Assembly (NCBI GenBank): GCA_041940305.1
Contig: JBGTSJ010000007.1
Location: 1 to 64,000, forward strand
DNA: 64,000 nucleotides
Direction: 5' to 3'
Source of the DNA: Planctomycetaceae bacterium
GTDB taxonomy: Bacteria; Planctomycetota; Planctomycetia; Planctomycetales; Planctomycetaceae
Shown here: one piece after another, positions 34,864-43,674 of the stretch
Layout of the letters: every line of letters begins with the position of its first letter
Numbering within the stretch: the stretch's first letter is position 1
Notes under the pieces: generated by a model
Database searches by the model: none
Told to the model about the DNA's origin: nothing
What the model saw: the letters and a program-made list of their open reading frames with translations, nothing else
Made by a program: the position numbers and the translations under genes

Positions 34864-35094
34864 GGGGGTACGCAGATGACGCAGATGCAGAGGATTGACG
34901 CAGATGCTGCGCAGGTCTTGAAGGACGGCAGAAACACTAATAGCCGCTAATCTACGCTAATTCCTGCATGAGTGTCGATTAGCGGTGATTAGCGTTCCCC
35001 TCTTCGCTTTTTTTTCCATCCCGTCGTTCGCTGTCCGCCGTCACCTCTTGAAATCCGCGTCAATCCGCCCCATCCGCGTCATCCGCGGCCCCCC
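34864..35094. repeat. Family-1 palindromic element, copy E, 231 bp, with nested internal inverted repeats
   Basis: Arms GGGGGTACGCAGATGACGCAGATGCAGAGGATTGACGCAGATGC and GAAATCCGCGTCAATCCGCCCCATCCGCGTCATCCGCGGCCCCCC. The core carries CCGCTAATC...GATTAGCGG inverted repeats. It overlaps the last 11 codons of the PVC dehydrogenase gene. Confidence 0.9.
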
Positions 35095-38000
35095 TTCCCT
35101 CCACCCCCAGCGACTCGAGGTACGCCAACAGGTCGCGGAACTCCTGCACCGTCATCCGCTCCCACAGTTTCTCCGGCATCACCGACACCCGCTGCGGCAC
35201 CCGCTCCTCGATCTCATACGTCGAGATCTCCGTCGTCCGCCCCTCGCTGTCCCCCAGCACTGTCCGCCCCTCGTTCTCATGCACGATCATCCCCGTATGC
35301 ACCACGCCGTCCGTGGTCAGCATGTTCCACGTCGTAAACTGCGGCGACACGTCCTTGCTGGGCTCCAGGATCGAATCGATCAGCTTCTCCCGCGTAAAGC
35401 TCCGCCCCACATAAGATAAATCCGGCCCCACCCGCCCCCCGCGCCCTTCAACGGTGTGGCACTTGTAACAACCGGGCCCGTTGGGGTGATAGAACACGCG
35501 GCGACCGGAGGCGACTGGATCAATGCCGGTACTCGAGCGAAGCTCCTCGTAATCGGAGGTTACCGGCAACAGCTCGGCCTTCCAGACTTCGATACGCTGA
35601 GGACGTTTGCTCCATGCCTCCTCATACATGTTGAAGCGAGCGTCATCCGCTGGCGCTGCGAGATAAAGCTGCTCCAGCCACTCCTGCAGGCTCCATGGAT
35701 TGCCGGAGTAGGCGTTCAACGAGCCTGCCACTTCGTCGCGAATTCGCTCATCAGATCGCGAGAGCGGCCGGAGTGAGCGAATCGCCGCCATTGCGAAATC
35801 GAAGTCCGAGCGCAGGAACTCCGTCAGCGCGGCCGTGGCTGGCTGATTGCCGCCGCCTTGAGCCGCGATCTTGGATAAGCCGAGCATGGCTTCTTCCACC
35901 AGAGCTGAGTATCGCGAGCGGGCCAGGCTCAGTTCAGCAAACTCGGCTTCGCTCAGTTCATCAATGGCTGCGTCGCTGAGACCGGATTCGTCGAACGGAT
36001 CCGGCTGCTTCGCTACCTCAATCAATAGCCCCTCCACTTCTTTGAGCGGCGACTCGCACAGCGACCGTACCGTCTCCAGCCGCAGATCAAAGTCGTCGCT
36101 CGCCAGCAACGCTTTCCACACGTCGATCGTGAGTTGCGGATCATCCGCCTCCACCAGCCGCAGCGCCTGCACCTTCACCGCATCCGGCGTCTCGGCATTC
36201 GTCAGCAGCGGCACAACATATTTCCCGATCGGCGCCTGCTCAAACTCCCGCGGACTCCGCCCATCCAGCATGTCCAGCGCCGCGATCGTCGCCAGAAACA
36301 ACTCCGTCGTCATCGGCTCGCTGGTGAGCACCCCCTCCACCTGCGGCCGCAATTCGGAAAGCCCCTCTTCCGCCGCCCACTGGACCGCGATGCGTCGGAC
36401 CTCGGGATCAGTATTAGCAATTGCGATCCGCAGAAACTCGTCGTCCTCTGCAAACGCGCGCCGCACCGCCAGCACCAAGACACATCGTGATGCAGACGAG
36501 ATCTCTCCAAGTCGCCGCCTCACAATTTCATCGCCGAACGTACGAGGTTCTCGATTCGCAATCGCCATTCGAAAGTAGATCCTGAGTTCCTCCTTATCCC
36601 GGGCGAGCGAGTCCACGAGGGCCGATGCCAGATTCTGAGGAATCTGCTCACGCTGTAGCTGATGAATCCTGAGAGTGCGCGCCTGCTCAAGTGGATGGCC
36701 GCCGTTGGAAAAGAACGCGGCGACGCTTCGCGATTCCCATGATTCGTACTTATCTGGCAACGTAGCGTTCCTCGGCCAGAGGAGCATGTAGTTCCAGTCG
36801 CGGTAATCCCGCACAGGACATTGAGGCACGCGACCGATGACTCTCATCATAGCGGTGCGCACTTCGTCCAGGGGCCAATGGATCACATTGGACTCTGTGC
36901 CGGTAAACCCGTAGTCAAATTCCTCAATTGGAACTTGAACGGCCTGCCAGGCAGCTTCGACTCGAGCGCGTGCGCTTAACGAACCATCATTCAGGATGTC
37001 GCTCAGCTTCTCTCGACCGTCGGCAGTTCCTCGCAATTGTTTCGCCGCGAGGCGTCGCATCGTCAACTGCCGTGAATTGAGCATTTTCGCAAGTGTTCCA
37101 ACTTCCAGTTCCGCGGATCCTCCGTCGCCACCGGAATCTTCCTCAGGCCGGGTCGGCGGCGGCTTCCCGCTAAACGGCGGATCGACGGCGCTGATCCGCC
37201 ACACCCGCCCATGCCCGTGCAGGTTGTAGTCCCGCTTCACCCAGTCGGTGCAATACAGGCTGCCGTCCGGAGCAAGCGCCAGTCCCACCGGTCGGAAATC
37301 CTCACCCCCCACGACCAGCGGCTCCGCAATCGACTCGAACGACGCACCCCGCGGCTGCAGCCGGAACCGGTCGATCCGGTGATCCCCCCAACTCGTCACC
37401 AGCAGGTTGCCCAGATACTCCTCCGGAAACGCATCGTGCTCATACGCCACAATCCCGCTCGGAGCTTCCCCCGTCCCTGCCACCATCGGCAGCGTCCCCG
37501 GGATCTCCCCGTTCCAGGCGGTAAACGGATGCTGCCCCTTGCGGCCGTTGCGGAACTTGTACCCGTAGTCCCCCCCTTCGATGACATGCAGCAACCGGCA
37601 CGGCGGCCTGCTGTCCGGATCGTTATCAACCGTGAACAACCGCCCGAACGCATCCACGCACGAAGCATGCGGATTCCAGAACCCGGTCGCCCAGTGGGAG
37701 AGCTGCGTCCCATCCGGCCGCATGCGGTAGATGTTGCCCCCCTCGCCACCGCCGGTGAGGGCCAATGAGCCGCGACCGGAAGGGAGCGGCCCGTCGGTCG
37801 CACCGGCGTCGTCGTCAATTTCTAGGCCGCTTCCCGCCGGGCGCGGCTCTTTGAGCGACTCTCGACCAACAAGCGTGTAGTCCTCGCCCAGATTCTCCCC
37901 GAACCCGAAGTACATCCACCCCAGCGCATCAAACGCAAACCCCGCCAGCCCGTTATGCGGATAGTTCCCCTTCGTCTCCAGCCGCGCCAGCACCGTCTGC

Positions 38001-38548
38001 CGATCGCACACATCATCCCCGTCCAGGTCCTCCAGCAGCAGAATCTCCCGCCGCGTCGCCAGAAACACCTGCAGCGGGTGCTGAGAGCCGCGACCGGCAG
38101 GGAGCGGTTCGGCGGTGGGATCATCGTCCATCTCCGGGCCGCTTCCCGCCGCGCGCGGCTCCTTCCCATCTCCATCGACCATCGTCTCTCGACCATCGAC
38201 CCTCACCGCGTCCATCCACACTGGCCGCACCGCCACGCTCATCGCATGCGTGAACCCGTCCGTGAATACCCGCACGTCATCCGCTCGCCCGTCCCCGTCG
38301 GTGTCCGCCATCACCAGCAGCCGGTCGCTCGGATGCCCGTCATATCCCTCCGGCCGGAAGTGCGTATTGCTCTCAATGGCCCACACGCGCCCCCGCGCAT
38401 CCACATCCATCCCCGTCGGCGTCCGAATCTGAGGCTGCTCCGCAAACAGCTCGATCCGAATCCGCGCATCCACCGATCGCGGCCCTTCCTCTGCCGAGCT
38501 GACCGAGCACGCACACAACACCAGTCCGACGACGCAAAGTCTGAGCAT
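35060..38548 (-). CDS. PVC-type membrane-bound dehydrogenase domain plus HEAT repeats plus C-terminal CxxCH haem-binding domain protein (TIGR02604/TIGR02603-like)
   Basis: Signal peptide MLRLCVVGLVLCACSVSSA. An N-terminal beta-propeller dehydrogenase-like region, HEAT-like repeats and a C-terminal CYKCH haem-c motif. The last 10 aa (GAADDADGAD*) are encoded inside palindromic repeat E. Confidence 0.85.
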   Translation of the reverse strand: MLRLCVVGLVLCACSVSSAEEGPRSVDARIRIELFAEQPQIRTPTGMDVDARGRVWAIESNTHFRPEGYDGHPSDRLLVMADTDGDGRADDVRVFTDGFTHAMSVAVRPVWMDAVRVDGRETMVDGDGKEPRAAGSGPEMDDDPTAEPLPAGRGSQHPLQVFLATRREILLLEDLDGDDVCDRQTVLARLETKGNYPHNGLAGFAFDALGWMYFGFGENLGEDYTLVGRESLKEPRPAGSGLEIDDDAGATDGPLPSGRGSLALTGGGEGGNIYRMRPDGTQLSHWATGFWNPHASCVDAFGRLFTVDNDPDSRPPCRLLHVIEGGDYGYKFRNGRKGQHPFTAWNGEIPGTLPMVAGTGEAPSGIVAYEHDAFPEEYLGNLLVTSWGDHRIDRFRLQPRGASFESIAEPLVVGGEDFRPVGLALAPDGSLYCTDWVKRDYNLHGHGRVWRISAVDPPFSGKPPPTRPEEDSGGDGGSAELEVGTLAKMLNSRQLTMRRLAAKQLRGTADGREKLSDILNDGSLSARARVEAAWQAVQVPIEEFDYGFTGTESNVIHWPLDEVRTAMMRVIGRVPQCPVRDYRDWNYMLLWPRNATLPDKYESWESRSVAAFFSNGGHPLEQARTLRIHQLQREQIPQNLASALVDSLARDKEELRIYFRMAIANREPRTFGDEIVRRRLGEISSASRCVLVLAVRRAFAEDDEFLRIAIANTDPEVRRIAVQWAAEEGLSELRPQVEGVLTSEPMTTELFLATIAALDMLDGRSPREFEQAPIGKYVVPLLTNAETPDAVKVQALRLVEADDPQLTIDVWKALLASDDFDLRLETVRSLCESPLKEVEGLLIEVAKQPDPFDESGLSDAAIDELSEAEFAELSLARSRYSALVEEAMLGLSKIAAQGGGNQPATAALTEFLRSDFDFAMAAIRSLRPLSRSDERIRDEVAGSLNAYSGNPWSLQEWLEQLYLAAPADDARFNMYEEAWSKRPQRIEVWKAELLPVTSDYEELRSSTGIDPVASGRRVFYHPNGPGCYKCHTVEGRGGRVGPDLSYVGRSFTREKLIDSILEPSKDVSPQFTTWNMLTTDGVVHTGMIVHENEGRTVLGDSEGRTTEISTYEIEERVPQRVSVMPEKLWERMTVQEFRDLLAYLESLGVEGRGAADDADGAD
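37767..37849. repeat. Family-3 palindromic element, copy 1, in-frame inside the PVC dehydrogenase gene
   Basis: GAGCCGCGACCGGAAGGGAGCGGCCCG-(31 bp)-GGCCGCTTCCCGCCGGGCGCGGCTC. It encodes [28 protein letters not shown] on the minus strand. Confidence 0.85.
38084..38162. repeat. Family-3 palindromic element, copy 2, in-frame inside the PVC dehydrogenase gene
   Basis: GAGCCGCGACCGGCAGGGAGCGGTTCGGCGG-(22 bp)-CCGGGCCGCTTCCCGCCGCGCGCGGCTCC. It encodes [30 protein letters not shown] and lies 317 bp from copy 1 in the same orientation. Confidence 0.85.
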
Positions 38549-38644
38549 CCGTCCCCTCCCAACACGTTTAGCCGCGACTCGAAGAGCGCGCCCCCCTCTA
38601 AGGTACCTCCAACACGTTAAACAAGGTCCCCACAATCCCCTCCC

Positions 38645-38729: not shown

Positions 38730-39611
38730 TCACTCCCCTGCCACCCGCTTCACAAACTCAAACAACGCTTCCGACGGCGCATCCCCATCCGTCCCCAGGT
38801 TGTCGTTCAGCTTCACATGATCCGTGTCCCGCGCCCCGTACGGCGTCGAGTCGATCCCCGCCTCGCTCAGCACATTGTGCAGCCGCCGCGCCTGCGCCGA
38901 GACGTCCGGATGATTGCTCACGTACAGAATCAGAAACGGCGGAATCCCCTTCTCGGGCGCGATGTGCGTCACCGTCGAGAAGTCCACGTGCTTCTCCGGG
39001 TCGTTGCCGAACTTCTGACGATGCCCGAATGTCGGCAGCGGGAATCCATGAGCGCGGCAGCGGACTTCCGCCACTTCGATGATCGCCGGGATGTCGTACG
39101 TGTCCCCGTCCACCGGCACGCACCCCTTCAGCACCGACGGCGACACCCCTTCCGCCTCGATGTATCGGTGATCGCAGCACAGCAGCGCCGCCAGCTGCGC
39201 CCCCGCCGAGTGCCCCATCACGAGGATCCGCTCCGGGTCCCCGCCGTACTCGGCGATATGCGCATGCACCCACCCCAGCGCCTTGGCCACGTCCTGCACC
39301 AGCGTCTCCATGTCCACGTCCGGCAGCAGGCGGTAGTTCGTCGACACGAACACCAGCCCCCGCTCCACGAACGCCCGCGGCTTCGCTTCCACCTCCGACT
39401 TGTCCCCCACCTGCCAGCCCCCGCCATGAATCCAGAACACCACGGGCGCCCCGCGCGCATCATCCGGCGCATAAATATCCAACACCTGCCGCTCTCCCGC
39501 CGGCTCCGCATACGGCACGTCCTGCACCACCACGTCTCCCCGCACCGCAGGTACGAGAATGCACAACGCTCCCACCACCAGCGCACACAACGCGAACTGA
39601 TTCCGCATCAC
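38730..39611 (-). CDS. Secreted alpha/beta-hydrolase-fold esterase/lipase (Abhydrolase_3-like)
   Basis: Signal peptide [23 protein letters not shown]. Oxyanion HGGGW ([14 protein letters not shown]). Nucleophile elbow GHSAG ([10 protein letters not shown]). Confidence 0.85.
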
Positions 39612-39702: not shown

Positions 39703-40911
39703 TTACCGGACCTGGACGCGGGCCGTCTCCCGGGGGAGCGTCAGCCGAAAGCACGTCCCCGGACCGCCGCTCGACTCCACCTCGATCCGCCCCCGGTGCC
39801 CCTCCACGATCCGCTTGGCGATCGACAGCCCCAGTCCCGTTCCTCCTTTGCCGTCGCGGGCAGCGCCGCTCACGAACGGCCGGAACAGGTTCCGCTGCGT
39901 CTCCGGATCGATCCCCGGCCCCCGATCGCTCACCCGTACGATCACGTATTCCGGGTCCGAAGACAGGTTCAGCCGCACCCGCTCTCCTGCCGGAGAGAAC
40001 TTAACCGCATTGTCAATCAGGTTGTTGAACACCTGCTCCAGCTTCCCCGCGTCCCCGTTGATCTCGGCATCCGCGGAGGAGTTCGCATCCAGGTCCAGCT
40101 CCACCCCCGACTTCCGCGCAATCGGCCGGAACCTCTTCACCAGCCCGTCCAGAAACGGCACGATCGGAATCAGCGTCAGCTCCAGCTGCAACCGCCCCGC
40201 CTCGATCGACGACACGTCCAGCACATTGTTGACCAGCCGGTTCATCGACTCCGCCGTCTGGTGCATCGTCCGCAGCATGTCCCGCTCTTCCTCGTTCAGC
40301 CGCGCGTCCGCCGCCAGAATCAGATATTCGCTATACATCTGCAGGATGGCGATCGGATTGCGCAGGTCATGCGCAACCACCCCCAGCGCCCGGTTCTTCT
40401 CCTCGTTCATCCGGTTGAGCTGCGCCGCCTGCTTGTGAAGCTGGCGCTGCGTGTTGACCAGCTCGTTGTTGAGCCGGCTCATCTCGTCGTACACCCCCGC
40501 ATCGCTCAGCCGCCGCGACCGCGTGACGAGAATCTGCTTCACCGCGTCCCGGACCAGGTTCGCCTGCTCGTTGTTGATGCCTGCCAGCTCTTCCAGGTAC
40601 GCCAGCACCGAATGCCGCGACTGGATCCCGCAGATCAGATAACCGTCTCCCGTCCATCCTCCGACGAAATGCAGCGTCTGCGGCAGTTCTCCCAGGCACG
40701 CGTCCAGTTCCCAGTCGAACGCCGCCCCGGTGAACCGCACCGCATCCAGAAACGCCTGCCCCTTCGCGCGGCTCGATTCGTCCAGTAGCAACTTGAAGGA
40801 ACGCCCCACGAAGTGATCGGCGATCTGCAGGTCGTCCCGCACAAACCGCTCGACCACACCGTCCCCGCGGCAGATCACGCCGAATCCCACAGAGCCTGAG
40901 CCCGTGCTCAT
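39703..40911 (-). CDS. PAS-domain sensor histidine kinase
   Basis: H-box VVAHDLRNPI, an N-box and the G-boxes of an HATPase_c domain, with an N-terminal PAS-like domain. ATG 40911 overlaps the stop of the upstream B12-binding gene (ATGA). The long GC-rich N-terminal extension of the ORF is rejected. Confidence 0.82.
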   Translation of the reverse strand: MSTGSGSVGFGVICRGDGVVERFVRDDLQIADHFVGRSFKLLLDESSRAKGQAFLDAVRFTGAAFDWELDACLGELPQTLHFVGGWTGDGYLICGIQSRHSVLAYLEELAGINNEQANLVRDAVKQILVTRSRRLSDAGVYDEMSRLNNELVNTQRQLHKQAAQLNRMNEEKNRALGVVAHDLRNPIAILQMYSEYLILAADARLNEEERDMLRTMHQTAESMNRLVNNVLDVSSIEAGRLQLELTLIPIVPFLDGLVKRFRPIARKSGVELDLDANSSADAEINGDAGKLEQVFNNLIDNAVKFSPAGERVRLNLSSDPEYVIVRVSDRGPGIDPETQRNLFRPFVSGAARDGKGGTGLGLSIAKRIVEGHRGRIEVESSGGPGTCFRLTLPRETARVQVR

Positions 40912-41969
40912 GGCCGCGCCCCTCCGGTCATCAGTTGCCGACCTGTTAAGACCGCCTGCTCCGCATCGGCCGCCCAGCCGTCGGCTCCCACCCGCTCCCA
41001 CAGCTTGCCGTCCAGTAGAAACGGCCTTCCGCCCACCAGCACGCGCACCGCGGCTGCCGCGCGCACCGCCACGATCGTCTCCCGCAGCTTCGGCAGGTGG
41101 TACGTCATCGTCGCCGACAGCGCCAGCAGATCGGCCCCACGTTCCTGCACCTGCTGCACGATCCCCTGCACCGGCGTGCTCGCCCCCAGGAAATAACTGT
41201 CCCATCCGTCCAGTTCAAAGAAGTCCGCAATCATCCGCGACCCGATCTCGTGCAAATCCCCCCCGATGCACGCGCACACCATCACCCAGCCGTTCCGCTC
41301 TCCCCTCAGCAGATGCGGATACAGCTGCGACATCACCAGCTGCGTCACCGCCGTGCAGTAATGCTCCTGCGCGACGGAGATCTCGTTCACCTGCCACAAC
41401 CGCCCGATCTCATACTGCACCGGCTGGAAAACATGCAGGTAAACGTCCCGCACCGGCGTCCCCCCGGCGACGGCGTCCAGGATCAGCTTCAGCGCCCCCG
41501 CCCGATCCGCTCGCAAGAGCGCCGCGAGATAATCACGCGCCAGCGCACGCGTCCCGTCCGACAGCAGTGACCTCTTCTCCACCACGGCGTGACTCAACTG
41601 GGCGAGTCCGGCCTCAATCGCGTTCGAGAACACCGCCGCCTGCTCCGACGGCAGCCGCTCATCCAGCGTCTGGCGCAGGCACTCCAGGTTGACGATCAGG
41701 TCCTCCGTCCCCACGTTCCGCTCTTCGAGCACCACCCGTGCCCAGTTCACATAGTCCGCAAACAGCACCGCGCTCTCGGCTTCCACTGCCTCGGCGAGGT
41801 ACCGCAGGTGATACTCCGCGTCCTCCAGGCACCGCGCCCGCCCCGCTGCGCCGTATCGCTGCAGCACGTCCGGAGCGCGCACCGCATGCCGCTCCACGAT
41901 CGCAGACGCCAGCTCAGCCGTCCGCCCGCGCAGCTGCTCAACGGCAGCGGCTGCATGAGAATCCATCAC
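40908..41969 (-). CDS. Cobalamin (B12)-binding domain protein with an N-terminal helical (B12-binding_2-like) domain; CarH/AerR-like sensor module without a DNA-binding domain
   Basis: C-terminal B12-binding Rossmann motif VMVCACIGGDLHEIGSRMIADFFELDGWDSYFLGASTP contains the DxHxxG signature. About 190 aa of helical N-terminal domain. Confidence 0.78.
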   Translation of the reverse strand: MMDSHAAAAVEQLRGRTAELASAIVERHAVRAPDVLQRYGAAGRARCLEDAEYHLRYLAEAVEAESAVLFADYVNWARVVLEERNVGTEDLIVNLECLRQTLDERLPSEQAAVFSNAIEAGLAQLSHAVVEKRSLLSDGTRALARDYLAALLRADRAGALKLILDAVAGGTPVRDVYLHVFQPVQYEIGRLWQVNEISVAQEHYCTAVTQLVMSQLYPHLLRGERNGWVMVCACIGGDLHEIGSRMIADFFELDGWDSYFLGASTPVQGIVQQVQERGADLLALSATMTYHLPKLRETIVAVRAAAAVRVLVGGRPFLLDGKLWERVGADGWAADAEQAVLTGRQLMTGGARP

Positions 41970-42265
41970 GACGCCACATGTTCAAACTGCAGAACGCGGT
42001 TCTTTCCCGGCACCAGCTTCAGCCCCCGCGGTATCCCCGCGTGCGCCTCCTGGTATTGATGCCCCCGATGCCACGACTGGAAGTGCTGTTCCGTTTCCCA
42101 GAATGTCATCAGCCAGAACGCCGCCGGCTCATCCCGCGGACAGAGCACCTCCATCCGCACGAACCCCGGCGCGGAGTCCACCAGATGCGGCCGGCGCCGA
42201 AACGCCTCCCTCACCTCCCCCTCCATTCCGTTTGCCACGGTGAACTGACTGATCGCAACGAACAT
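41966..42265 (-). CDS. ABM (antibiotic-biosynthesis-monooxygenase / haem-degrading IsdG-like) domain protein
   Basis: 99 aa, MFVAISQFTVANGMEGEVREAFRRRPHLVDSAPGFVRMEVLCP...FWLMTFWETEQHFQSWHRGHQYQEAH. Its stop overlaps the start of the B12-binding gene. Confidence 0.62.
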   Translation of the reverse strand: MFVAISQFTVANGMEGEVREAFRRRPHLVDSAPGFVRMEVLCPRDEPAAFWLMTFWETEQHFQSWHRGHQYQEAHAGIPRGLKLVPGKNRVLQFEHVAS

Positions 42266-42765
42266 CCAAATCCCACAACAGTGAGCGTGCCACTCCGATT
42301 TGCCAGTAAAACAGAGTATCAAAGCCCGCGACCCCTTCCAACAAGGCTGATTCGTCGTCCCAGGGCAACCAACTTCGGCCAGCGTTGCCCTGCTTATTCC
42401 GGATCAGTCTCGGTTGACAAATCACCGTCCGCCGCCCCTGAGATCGGGCAAGCAGGCCACCGGCCTGGACGCCCGGATTCAGTCATCCTGGGGCGTATTC
42501 GATACGGGAGCAGTTGCTCAGCGCCCCGACGGGGAAAGCCGTCGCACGGGACACGTAACCCGGCGTTGCTGCGCTTGCCGATTGATTTCGGGCTGAGGCG
42601 CCGTCGCGACCATTCCGATCGCCAATGTCGACCGCTCCCGGAATGCGGTGATGGTCAGCGCGATGTCGAGACCGGCCTCAGGCGCTCGGCGACGGGTCGA
42701 CAGTGGCCTGCCACCGCGATGGGCTCCACCGTGCCAGGGAAGTCGTGTCAGCGTACGATTGTGGC

Positions 42766-43674
42766 ATGTCCGAGTCCCATCGCAGTCCCGTCCGGCACTT
42801 CGACGAACTGGACCGCATTCCACTTCTCCTCGACGGTCCCACCGGCACCGAACTCTCTCGCCGCGGCTACGACGTCAACGTCCCGGGCTGGTCCGCTTCC
42901 GCGCTCGTTCACGCAGCGGAACTCCTCCGCTCCATCCACGCCGACTACGTCGCCGCCGGGGCGGCACTGATCACCGCGAACACCTTCCGCACCCACGCCC
43001 GCAACGTGGAACAGGCTGCACTCGGGCAGTCGGCAGCCGAACTGACCAACCACGCCGTCCGGCTGGCCCGCGAGGCCGCCGGCGGCCGCGCCCTCATCGC
43101 CGGTTCCCAGGCCCCGTTGGAGGATTGCTACTCCCCGCACCTCGTGCCGCCCGACTCAGAGCTGCGCGGCGAACACCGTTCTCACGCCCATAATCTCGCT
43201 GCGGCTGGAGCGGACCTGATCCTCATCGAAACCATGAGCACCATCCGCGAAGCCGTCGCCGCCTCCGAGGCCGCGCGGGAAACCGGGCTCCCGTTCTTCG
43301 TCAGCTTCGTCTGCCGCGCCGACCCCGCCGGACGCCTCCTCTCCGGCGAATCCCTCGCCGACGCCGCGCGGGCCATCCTCCCCCACGGCCCTACCGCCCT
43401 CCTCATCAACTGCCTCCCCGCTCCCGCCGCTGCTCAGCTCCTCCCCCAACTCCGCGCCGCGGCTCCCGATCTCCCGCTCGGCGTCTATGCCAACACCGCC
43501 CAACTCCAACCCGACGGCCGCTGGACCGACACCCCCGCCACCGATCCAGCCATCTACGCCCGCCACGCTGCCGACTGGCTCGCCGCCGGCGCCAAAATCA
43601 TCGGAGGCTGCTGCGGCGCCACTCCCGCCCACATCGCGGCGCTCGCTGACCAACCTCGTCAGCTGCGGACCTAA
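42766..43674 (+). CDS. mmuM: Homocysteine S-methyltransferase (Pfam S-methyl_trans)
   Basis: ...LLLDGPTGTELSRRGY..., a C-terminal GGCCG Zn/Hcy-binding motif (KIIGGCCGATPAHIAAL) and about 303 aa. Start at ATG 42766 (MSESHRSP). Confidence 0.78.
   Translation: MSESHRSPVRHFDELDRIPLLLDGPTGTELSRRGYDVNVPGWSASALVHAAELLRSIHADYVAAGAALITANTFRTHARNVEQAALGQSAAELTNHAVRLAREAAGGRALIAGSQAPLEDCYSPHLVPPDSELRGEHRSHAHNLAAAGADLILIETMSTIREAVAASEAARETGLPFFVSFVCRADPAGRLLSGESLADAARAILPHGPTALLINCLPAPAAAQLLPQLRAAAPDLPLGVYANTAQLQPDGRWTDTPATDPAIYARHAADWLAAGAKIIGGCCGATPAHIAALADQPRQLRT

What the first reader, a model, noticed from the sequence alone, without database searches (positions are those of the whole stretch)
39703..42265. 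ABM-domain protein, standalone B12-binding sensor protein and PAS histidine kinase form a translationally coupled operon
The three minus-strand genes overlap by 4 bp at each junction (ATGA at 41966 and 40908). The middle protein pairs a helical domain with a canonical B12-binding domain (DxHxxG: GGDLHEIG) but has no DNA-binding domain. This is the architecture of AerR/CarH-type cobalamin photosensor or antirepressor modules. The preceding ABM protein is of the haem-degrading IsdG type. Coupling such a module to a PAS kinase suggests a light- or cobalamin/haem-responsive two-component input that I have not seen described. No response-regulator gene is adjacent.
Basis: partly seen in the sequence, partly recalled or inferred. 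Interest (0 to 1): 0.6.

Follow-up and report, generated by a model that had tools for sequence, protein, structure and literature searches.

The report
Photocobilin light sensor with kinase operon
The three overlapping genes encode a haem-degrading-type enzyme, a B12-plus-bilin light sensor of the known "photocobilin/photoglobin" family and a soluble histidine kinase; this is a real and widely conserved light-input module, but the family and its links to kinases and ABM genes are already published.

Summary
Three minus-strand genes (ABM 41966-42265, B12 protein 40908-41969, kinase 39703-40911) overlap at both junctions, and the 64-kb window has no response regulator.

The B12 protein's N-terminal ~125 residues form a phycobiliprotein-like globin, a photoglobin. 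The protein is therefore a globin-first photocobilin. Its best solved relatives are the photocobilins SasPcob/AbPcob. It keeps the W-x9-EH and DxH AdoCbl-photoreceptor motifs and the bilin-binding Asp.

This family, and the presence of histidine kinase and ABM genes in its operons, was described in 2021 and 2024. It is a new member of a known kind.

The methyltransferase-partner alternative is refuted: no related locus carries a homocysteine methyltransferase, and 72% carry a kinase or GGDEF effector directly downstream.

Three points may be new:
- The ABM belongs to a subfamily found next to a photocobilin gene in about 90% of loci. It keeps the haem-ligand His and the Trp, but the catalytic Asn is always Ser.
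- ABM presence correlates with a Cys at the phycobiliprotein attachment position.
- The kinase N-terminus is a PAS fold that Pfam does not detect. It is always N-terminal and occurs on kinases and diguanylate cyclases that follow photocobilin genes.

The parts
41966..42265 (-). ABM-domain protein (99 aa), member of a photocobilin-linked subfamily of IsdG/MhuD/HmuQ-like proteins; putative haem-degrading bilin supplier
   Evidence: Pfam ABM E 3.9e-17. Best NCBIfam hits are HmuQ 2.2e-12 and IsdG-type haem oxygenases, all below their cut-offs. Best PDB hits are TT1380, MhuD, HmoB and IsdI. Invariant S6, N12, R25, W65, H75 in 9 orthologues. 61 of 72 testable metagenome loci have a photocobilin gene directly downstream, and 4 more have it directly upstream.
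40908..41969 (-). Standalone photocobilin / photoglobin-B12 protein (353 aa from GTG 41969; 352 aa from ATG 41966)
41595..41960 (-). Photoglobin (phycobiliprotein-like globin) domain, aa ~4-125, with C47-L-E-D50 motif
41310..41546 (-). Four-helix-bundle B12 cap (B12-binding_2), aa ~142-220, with W192-x9-E202-H203
   Evidence: Pfam PF02607 E 6e-16. W, E and H are invariant in 120 homologues.
40926..41285 (-). Rossmann B12-binding domain, aa ~229-348, GGDLH240EIG (lower axial His) and G-x3-P
   Evidence: Pfam PF02310 E 3e-21. H240 is invariant. Foldseek top hits are light-sensing CBDs.
39703..40911 (-). Soluble sensor histidine kinase (402 aa), phospho-acceptor His181
   Evidence: HisKA aa 172-239 E 1.7e-15 and HATPase_c aa 286-395 E 1.2e-30. 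About 115 full-length orthologues of 380-430 aa.
40624..40887 (-). Cryptic N-terminal PAS-fold domain of the kinase (aa ~9-96; module with linker helices to ~aa 160), invariant C14 and W67
40908..40911 (-). ATGA stop/start overlap between the photocobilin and kinase genes
   Evidence: Sequence. The same overlap of 4 nt or less, or a gap of a few nt, is seen in homologous loci.
41964..41969 (-). GTGATG junction between the ABM and photocobilin genes (4-nt GTGA overlap, or 1-nt overlap if the ATG is used)
   Evidence: Sequence. Public gene calls.
42266..42702 (.). Divergent intergenic region upstream of the operon, shared with the oppositely oriented homocysteine S-methyltransferase gene; presumed promoter region
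   Evidence: ORF map. No Rfam family, including the cobalamin riboswitch, reaches its gathering score. No sigma-70-like consensus found.

Best explanation
The operon encodes the input side of a light-responsive two-component system built around a photocobilin.

(1) The 99-aa ABM protein, an IsdG/MhuD/HmuQ-like enzyme, degrades haem to a linear tetrapyrrole.

(2) The 353-aa protein binds that bilin in its N-terminal phycobiliprotein-like globin. Asp50 is the key contact, and Cys47 sits at the phycobiliprotein attachment position. It binds adenosylcobalamin in its C-terminal CarH-type domain, with His240 as lower ligand and W192/E202/H203 capping the adenosyl group.

(3) Light cleaves the Co-C bond. 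Green light acts directly on AdoCbl; red light may act through the adjacent bilin, as shown for SasPcob. The protein's conformation or oligomeric state then changes.

(4) The change passes by protein-protein contact to the co-translated soluble kinase, most likely through the kinase's N-terminal cryptic PAS domain. This alters autophosphorylation at His181.

(5) The kinase signals to an orphan response regulator encoded elsewhere.

Shown here: domain identities, motif conservation, fold assignments and conserved gene linkage.
Inferred: cofactor binding, haem degradation by the ABM, light response, the contact surface and the direction of regulation.
For: Family identity:
- All light-responsive CBD signatures are present and at least 97% conserved in 120 homologues: GxxW, EH, GxxH and GxxxP (signature list from PMC11796333, read; conservation).
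- D50 aligns with the biliverdin-binding Asp270 of SasPcob (PMC10979010).

Linkage to signalling:
- 55 of 76 testable genome loci have a kinase core or an effector carrying the same N-terminal domain directly downstream.
- That N-terminal domain is also fused to GGDEF, PAS-GGDEF, GAF-GGDEF and hybrid kinases.
- 6 of 7 looked-up kinases with this domain have a photocobilin gene immediately upstream, overlapping it or separated by a few nt.
- Standalone photocobilins regulate an enzyme in trans in vitro (PMC10979010).

ABM:
- Its best characterised relatives are haem degraders.
- The haem-ligand His75, Trp65 and Arg25 are invariant.
- About 90% of loci with this ABM subfamily have an adjacent photocobilin gene.
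- ABM presence correlates with Cys at the attachment position: 16 of 18 ABM-linked clusters against 6 of 24 clusters without ABM, at 55% clustering.
Against: - No biochemical data exist for any globin-first photocobilin, for this ABM subfamily or for this kinase.
- The ABM lacks the catalytic Asn. Ser6 is invariant at the IsdG Asn7 / MhuD Asn7 position, and Asn7 is described as critical (PMC6018153). Scores are far below the NCBIfam haem-oxygenase cut-offs (47 against 130 bits).
- Only 7 of 71 genome loci found through the photocobilin carry the ABM, so the ABM is not required by the family in general.
- 22 loci have a downstream kinase without a detectable copy of the cryptic PAS domain. In Paenibacillus the kinase has no room for it, because HisKA starts at aa 78. 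In Novipirellula rosea the downstream kinase ORF is only 330 aa. That domain therefore cannot be the only possible contact surface.
- The organism is probably a non-phototrophic planctomycete (inference), and the regulated output is unknown.
Confidence: 0.62

Rival explanations
1. The B12 protein is a methyl-carrying corrinoid protein that serves the divergently transcribed homocysteine S-methyltransferase (42703-43674), and the kinase is merely a neighbour.
For: A PF02574 homocysteine S-methyltransferase lies about 440 nt upstream on the other strand. The same neighbour is present in all three copies of this contig. NCBIfam lists weak similarity to MtgC, MtbC and MetH corrinoid domains. Automatic annotations call homologues 'methanogenic corrinoid protein MtbC1'.
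Against: Corrinoid-protein scores are 47-55 bits against cut-offs of 215-370. The W-x9-EH photoreceptor motif is invariant. The best PDB relatives are photoreceptors. No homologue of the methyltransferase occurs within 6 kb of the photocobilin in any of 80 related genome loci, whereas 72% have a kinase or GGDEF effector directly downstream.
Confidence: 0.02
2. The module is a dark chemosensor rather than a photoreceptor. It would report cobalamin form or availability, haem or bilin level, or redox/O2 state to the kinase, in the manner of AerR or SCHIC-domain proteins.
Against: The AdoCbl-specific cap (W-x9-EH) and the full light-responsive signature are invariant. The closest sequence relatives are experimentally light-responsive. 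The cobalt-ligand His is retained, so this is not SCHIC. AdoCbl bound this way is intrinsically photolabile.
Confidence: 0.12
3. The photocobilin-kinase reading is right, but the ABM protein is not a haem oxygenase. It could be a bilin carrier or attachment helper, or a cofactor-independent oxygenase that modifies a bilin, with the bilin itself coming from a canonical haem oxygenase elsewhere in the genome.
For: The catalytic Asn of IsdG/MhuD is replaced by an invariant Ser. Asn7 is reported as critical or important for activity. All haem-oxygenase equivalog cut-offs are missed. The closest solved structure, TT1380, has no assigned function. ABM presence tracks with the Cys attachment residue, which would also fit a lyase-like helper.
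Against: The proximal His, the ruffling Trp and the Arg aligned with MhuD Arg26 are invariant. All characterised relatives that score are haem degraders. No canonical haem oxygenase (PF01126) appeared among the top 25 Pfam families of the upstream neighbours. By my own knowledge, haem oxygenase genes placed beside bilin photoreceptor genes are an established pattern (bphO-bphP).
Confidence: 0.22

Closest known systems
Photocobilins SasPcob and AbDPcob/AbPcob (Zhang et al. 2024, PMC10979010; PDB 8J2W, 8J2X, 8J2Y)
   Same: CarH-type AdoCbl domain (W-x9-EH, DxH) fused to a phycobiliprotein-like globin with the conserved bilin-binding Asp. About 33-35% identity over the B12 part. Standalone form, like SasPcob. 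In-trans regulation of an effector was shown in vitro.
   Different: The domain order is permuted here (globin N-terminal). A Cys sits at the phycobiliprotein attachment position where SasPcob has Thr. The natural partner is a histidine kinase encoded by an overlapping gene, rather than a fused diguanylate cyclase or STAS/SpoIIE neighbours. There is a dedicated ABM gene upstream. Nothing has been tested experimentally.
Photoglobin family and its operons (Schneider et al. 2021, PMC8717448)
   Same: This is the same family. The paper's representative has C46, D49 and L80 in an N-terminal photoglobin followed by B12-binding_2 and B12-binding, with identical numbering to the 352-aa product here. 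The paper lists Planctomycetaceae, Paenibacillus and Methanoregula members, and reports operon association with histidine kinases and 'ABM monooxygenase'.
   Different: In the sections I read, the paper treats the ABM generically (degrading 'antibiotics') and not as a bilin source. Those sections do not single out the cryptic N-terminal PAS domain of the downstream effectors, the ABM-Cys correlation or the KaiBC neighbourhood. I did not read the whole paper.
CarH / LitR (MerR-type AdoCbl photoreceptor repressors)
   Different: There is no MerR HTH domain. Output goes through a partner kinase, not DNA binding. There is an additional bilin-binding globin.
AerR-CrtJ and PpaA-PpsR (standalone B12/SCHIC proteins acting on PAS-containing regulators)
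   Different: The partner is a kinase, not a CrtJ/PpsR repressor. The CarH-type W-x9-EH cap is present. There is an extra globin. No photosynthesis gene context.
bphO-bphP operons (haem oxygenase plus bacteriophytochrome histidine kinase)
   Same: Same logic: a haem-degrading enzyme is co-transcribed with a bilin-dependent light sensor that controls a histidine kinase (my own knowledge of the bphO-bphP arrangement).
   Different: The oxygenase here is ABM/IsdG-like, not a canonical HO. The bilin pocket is a globin, not PAS-GAF-PHY. A second chromophore (AdoCbl) is present. Sensor and kinase are separate polypeptides.
BBAG-2 / B12-binding protein / pre-2 FDBR clusters (Rockwell et al. 2023, PMC10151467)
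   Same: A globin related to phycobiliproteins is associated with a B12-binding protein and with haem-to-bilin enzymes. BBAG-2 proteins were shown to bind biliverdin.
   Different: In those clusters the globin and the B12 protein are separate, carry an RGMC rather than a CxQD/CxED motif, and come with a ferredoxin-dependent bilin reductase. No FDBR is present here.

Membership tests
Photocobilin / photoglobin-B12 photoreceptor | Rossmann B12-binding domain with E/DxH lower axial His | tested here: met
   GGDLH240EIG; Pfam PF02310 E 3e-21. The His is invariant in 120 homologues.
Photocobilin / photoglobin-B12 photoreceptor | Four-helix bundle with the W-x9-EH adenosyl cap, plus the light-responsive signature GxxW, EH, GxxH, GxxxP | tested here: met
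   W192...E202-H203, G189xxW, G237xxH, G262xxxP266, all 97-100% conserved. Signature taken from PMC11796333.
Photocobilin / photoglobin-B12 photoreceptor | Fused phycobiliprotein-like (photoglobin) domain | tested here: met
Photocobilin / photoglobin-B12 photoreceptor | Conserved bilin-contacting Asp (SasPcob D270; photoglobin D49) | tested here: met
   D50 aligns with SasPcob D270, using the +6 numbering offset derived from W61/E71/H72. It is invariant in the family.
Photocobilin / photoglobin-B12 photoreceptor | Domain order of the solved structures (B12 domain first, globin last) | tested here: not met
   The globin is N-terminal here. Both orders are included in the published family definitions, so this does not exclude membership.
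Photocobilin / photoglobin-B12 photoreceptor | Binds AdoCbl and a bilin; light-induced spectral and functional change | not testable with these tools
   Needs purified protein and spectroscopy.
CarH / LitR transcription factors | N-terminal MerR-type HTH DNA-binding domain | tested here: not met
   No HTH family among the Pfam hits; the N-terminus is a globin.
AerR / PpaA / SCHIC antirepressors | SCHIC variant: loss of the cobalt-ligand His with haem binding; partner is CrtJ/PpsR | tested here: not met
Methyltransferase corrinoid proteins (MtbC / MtgC / MtaC / MetH cap-B12 module) | Score above the family cut-off and a conserved adjacent cognate methyltransferase | tested here: not met
   47-55 bits against cut-offs of 215-370. 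No methyltransferase homologue in 80 related loci.
IsdG / MhuD / HmuQ haem-degrading ABM enzymes | ABM ferredoxin-like domain with the proximal His and the ruffling Trp | tested here: met
   PF03992 E 3.9e-17. W65 and H75 align with MhuD W66 and H75 and are invariant in 9 orthologues.
IsdG / MhuD / HmuQ haem-degrading ABM enzymes | Catalytic Asn (IsdG Asn7, MhuD Asn7) | tested here: not met
   Ser6 occupies this position in the window protein and in all 8 orthologues. An invariant Asn12 lies six residues later; its role is unknown.
IsdG / MhuD / HmuQ haem-degrading ABM enzymes | NCBIfam equivalog score cut-off | tested here: not met
   HmuQ 47.2 against 130; PRK13315 36.8 against 119; IsdI 18.8 against 200.
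IsdG / MhuD / HmuQ haem-degrading ABM enzymes | Haem binding and turnover to a bilin | not testable with these tools
   Needs an enzyme assay.
PAS-domain sensor histidine kinases | PAS fold N-terminal to HisKA-HATPase_c | tested here: met
PAS-domain sensor histidine kinases | Match to a Pfam PAS sequence profile | tested here: not met
   No PAS family at E<=0.01 for this kinase. None over residues 1-160 of 17 other proteins with the same domain, although their other PAS domains are detected.

The most novel reading that the evidence does not exclude
The ABM-linked, Cys-bearing clade of globin-first photocobilins may use a chromophore other than biliverdin. The Asn-to-Ser IsdG/MhuD-like enzyme would make a mycobilin- or staphylobilin-type oxo/formyl-bilin, and this would attach covalently to Cys47. 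The light signal would then pass to kinases and diguanylate cyclases through a dedicated, so far unannotated PAS subfamily (804 sequence clusters) that acts as a 'photocobilin receiver' domain. That would be the first natural two-chromophore (B12 + bilin) two-component system, with a new bilin source and a new chromophore. In some bacteria it may feed KaiBC timers.
Probability: 0.15. Interest if true: 0.7.

Novelty: new member of a known kind. Interest (0 to 1): 0.35.

Why it matters
Photocobilins are of interest as two-colour (green plus red) optogenetic parts, but their natural outputs are poorly defined. The 2024 paper states that the function of standalone photocobilins is 'less clear'.

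This locus and its relatives point to a natural output. The partner is a soluble kinase encoded by an overlapping gene, with a recognisable, profile-invisible PAS domain that recurs on kinases and diguanylate cyclases. The locus also carries a compact candidate chromophore-supply gene.

That gives a three-gene cassette that can be tested directly in E. coli. It also means that many database entries labelled 'methanogenic corrinoid protein MtbC1' are mis-annotated photoreceptors.

Tried and rejected
- Corrinoid partner of the neighbouring homocysteine methyltransferase: rejected. tblastn of the methyltransferase against 80 related loci gave no hit.
- Conserved role for the alpha/beta hydrolase downstream of the kinase (38730-39611): Paenibacillus loci also have a hydrolase after the kinase, but it is not detectably homologous. 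Treated as coincidence.
- Searching the word-indexed protein database with the kinase N-terminal 160 aa alone found nothing. The exhaustive HMMER search was needed.
- Cobalamin riboswitch or any other Rfam element in the window: none. Sigma-70 promoter and terminator scans were uninformative.
- Response regulator in the window: none.
- A canonical haem oxygenase as the usual upstream neighbour in ABM-less loci: not seen among the top Pfam families. Upstream genes are lineage-specific: MarR in Paenibacillus and a VirK-like secreted protein in Bacteroidota.
- One kinase with the cryptic PAS domain (L169) has about 1.1 kb upstream with no ORF of at least 80 aa on the kinase's strand and no photocobilin hit. 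Left unexplained.
Full report
OBSERVATION. The three minus-strand ORFs exist at the stated coordinates.

- ABM protein: 41966-42265, 99 aa, Pfam ABM E 3.9e-17.
- B12 protein: 40908-41969, 353 aa, with B12-binding_2 at aa 144-216 and B12-binding at aa 230-340.
- Kinase: 39703-40911, 402 aa, HisKA + HATPase_c.

The photocobilin/kinase junction is a true ATGA overlap at 40911-40908. The ABM/photocobilin junction reads GTGATG. It is a 4-nt GTGA overlap if GTG 41969 is the start, and a 1-nt overlap if ATG 41966 is used, as in public gene calls that give a 352-aa product. GGDLHEIG is present and there is no DNA-binding domain. A REC-domain search of the whole window, by tblastn with five queries and by an HMM at E<=1, found nothing. 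The kinase's response regulator is therefore encoded elsewhere. No other kinase is present in the window.

WHAT THE MIDDLE PROTEIN IS. Pfam also reports a Phycobilisome-protein (PF00502) match over aa 7-119, at 23.2 bits against a cut-off of 22.2. So the 'helical domain' is two domains: a globin and the four-helix B12 cap.

A sequence search of the PDB puts the photocobilins SasPcob (8J2W/8J2X, E 1e-34) and AbPcob (8J2Y, E 4e-28) at the top. Two separately aligned stretches are returned. Query aa 145-339 matches the target's N-terminal B12 domain, and query aa 12-105 matches the target's C-terminal globin. The order is circularly swapped.

The W192-x9-E202-H203 cap, His240, and the GxxW/EH/GxxH/GxxxP light-responsive signature of PMC11796333 are all present. 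They are 97-100% conserved in 120 homologues. Asp50 aligns with SasPcob Asp270, the main biliverdin contact, and is invariant. Cys47 occupies the position of the phycobiliprotein attachment Cys, where SasPcob has Thr. Its motif C-L-E-D corresponds to the photoglobin 'CXQD' motif noted by Rockwell et al..

The numbering C46/D49/L80 of the representative used by Schneider et al. is identical to that of the 352-aa product. This is the globin-first photoglobin-B12 family already described in 2021. It is renamed photocobilin and biochemically characterised, for B12-first members, in 2024.

IS IT A CORRINOID METHYL CARRIER? No. Similarity to MtbC, MtgC and MetH is far below the family cut-offs. The neighbouring homocysteine S-methyltransferase has no homologue within 6 kb in any of 80 related genome loci from many phyla. 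Of 76 loci with enough downstream sequence:

- 27 have a kinase with the same N-terminal domain as here.
- 6 have that domain fused to other outputs, which were GGDEF-type in the five I scanned.
- 22 have a kinase core without a detectable copy of that domain.

Together these are 55 of 76 loci (72%).

THE KINASE N-TERMINUS. No Pfam PAS model matches it. None matches the equivalent 160 residues in 17 other proteins whose additional PAS domains are readily detected.

An exhaustive HMMER search finds 804 cluster representatives with this domain. In 147 of the 150 listed matches it begins within the first 25 residues. The proteins are of very different lengths. Those scanned are kinases, hybrid kinases, multi-PAS kinases and diguanylate cyclases. 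C14 and W67 are invariant.

In 6 of 7 looked-up kinases carrying this domain, a photocobilin gene lies immediately upstream, overlapping it or a few nt away. The seventh has an unexplained ORF-free 1.1 kb.

I infer that this divergent PAS domain is the usual docking or receiver module for standalone photocobilins. It is not universal. Paenibacillus kinases start almost directly with HisKA, and the Novipirellula rosea downstream kinase ORF is only 330 aa with no detectable copy.

THE ABM PROTEIN. Its best characterised relatives are haem degraders: NCBIfam HmuQ 2e-12 and IsdG-type haem oxygenases, and PDB MhuD 1e-9, HmoB and IsdI. All scores are below the curated cut-offs. The top PDB hit, TT1380, has no assigned function.

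Eight orthologues next to photocobilin genes share invariant W65 and H75, aligned to MhuD W66 and H75. They also share R25, aligned to MhuD R26 (that residue's role is from my own knowledge). The IsdG/MhuD Asn7 position is Ser in all nine sequences. Asn7 is described as critical for IsdG, and its mutation lowers MhuD activity (PMC6018153). 'IsdG-type haem-degrading' is therefore a reasonable but unproven assignment.

From the ABM side the linkage is very tight. A metagenome scan with the subfamily profile found 527 relatives. Of the best 80, 72 have enough flanking DNA to test. 61 of these have a photocobilin gene directly downstream, and at least 4 more have it directly upstream. From the photocobilin side, only 7 of 71 genome loci carry the ABM. 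The ABM is thus an accessory of one clade.

In that clade the globin keeps the Cys. 63 of 73 ABM-linked photocobilins have CxxD, against 10 of 66 without ABM. After single-linkage clustering at 55% identity, the figures are 16 of 18 ABM-linked clusters against 6 of 24. This is not corrected for phylogeny.

The simplest reading is that the ABM supplies the bilin, by analogy with haem oxygenase genes beside bacteriophytochrome genes. Because IsdG and MhuD make staphylobilin and mycobilin rather than biliverdin, the chromophore could be unusual. That is speculation.

MECHANISM. See the best explanation. It rests on homology to SasPcob/AbDPcob. For those proteins, AdoCbl and biliverdin binding, red-light sensitisation of B12 photochemistry and in-trans activation of a diguanylate cyclase were demonstrated. 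It also rests on the conserved, translationally coupled gene pair seen here. No step has been tested for this protein.

NOVELTY. The family, its predicted two-chromophore light sensing, and its operon association with two-component kinases and with 'ABM monooxygenase' are all published. No paper in the searchable library describes a characterised photocobilin-kinase pair, or links an IsdG-type enzyme to photoreceptor chromophore supply. The locus is therefore a new member of a known kind.

Three side observations are modestly new: the dedicated ABM subfamily with Asn replaced by Ser, the ABM-Cys correlation, and the profile-invisible PAS receiver domain.

Source. The window matches MAG GCA_041941145.1, contig JBGTQU010000090.1. 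The closest ABM-photocobilin-kinase relatives include Planctomycetaceae and Pyrinomonadaceae MAGs and Novipirellula rosea. A planctomycete origin is my inference from these relatives and from the neighbouring DUF7133 / haem-binding protein.

Noticed in passing
L171 6395-8216; L087 299-2139; also L021, L026, L032, L041, L065, L143: KaiB and KaiC genes lie within a few kb of the photocobilin-kinase pair in 8 of 171 fetched loci (Blastocatellia, Bacteroidota and Spirochaetales MAGs). This suggests a light input to KaiBC timers in non-cyanobacteria. They are not present in the window itself.
   Followed up: partly
window 38730-39611 (-): A secreted-looking alpha/beta hydrolase (BD-FAE / carboxylesterase) follows the kinase after 91 nt on the same strand. 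Paenibacillus loci also have an alpha/beta hydrolase after their photocobilin-linked kinase (8 of 35 downstream genes). The two are not detectably homologous.
   Followed up: partly
window 35060-38635 (-): A 1191-aa DUF7133 / cytochrome-c-motif protein contains two near-identical inserted segments ([27 protein letters not shown] and [29 protein letters not shown]), visible in the translation. This looks like an internal duplication or low-complexity insertion.
   Followed up: no
window ~44000: GC skew switches sign from negative to positive at about 44 kb, where the cumulative skew reaches its minimum. The switch coincides with a change in gene orientation. It could be only strand bias of genes, or it could be a replication-related switch.
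   Followed up: no
L169 3889-5000: A kinase with the cryptic PAS domain is preceded by about 1.1 kb, the size of a photocobilin gene. This stretch has no ORF of at least 80 aa on the kinase's strand and no tblastn hit to the photocobilin. It may be a decayed or masked gene.
   Followed up: partly
Bacteroidota loci, e.g. L018 5447-5968, L026 5520-5996, L027 2461-2976: In eight Bacteroidota loci, a conserved secreted protein of about 160-200 aa sits directly upstream of the photocobilin gene, where the ABM sits in the window. Seven members of the upstream-gene set match Pfam VirK, and I take them to be this cluster.
   Followed up: partly
database annotations of homologues: Many homologues of the photocobilin are automatically named 'methanogenic corrinoid protein MtbC1', 'methylmalonyl-CoA mutase cobalamin-binding domain' or 'MerR family light-induced regulator'. 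These names are very likely wrong for this family.
   Followed up: no
window 40366-40584 (kinase aa 110-182): A weak, sub-threshold Pfam match to the 'Tri-helical' domain PF24465 (E 0.0014, 19.4 bits against a cut-off of 27) covers the helical linker between the PAS fold and HisKA.
   Followed up: no
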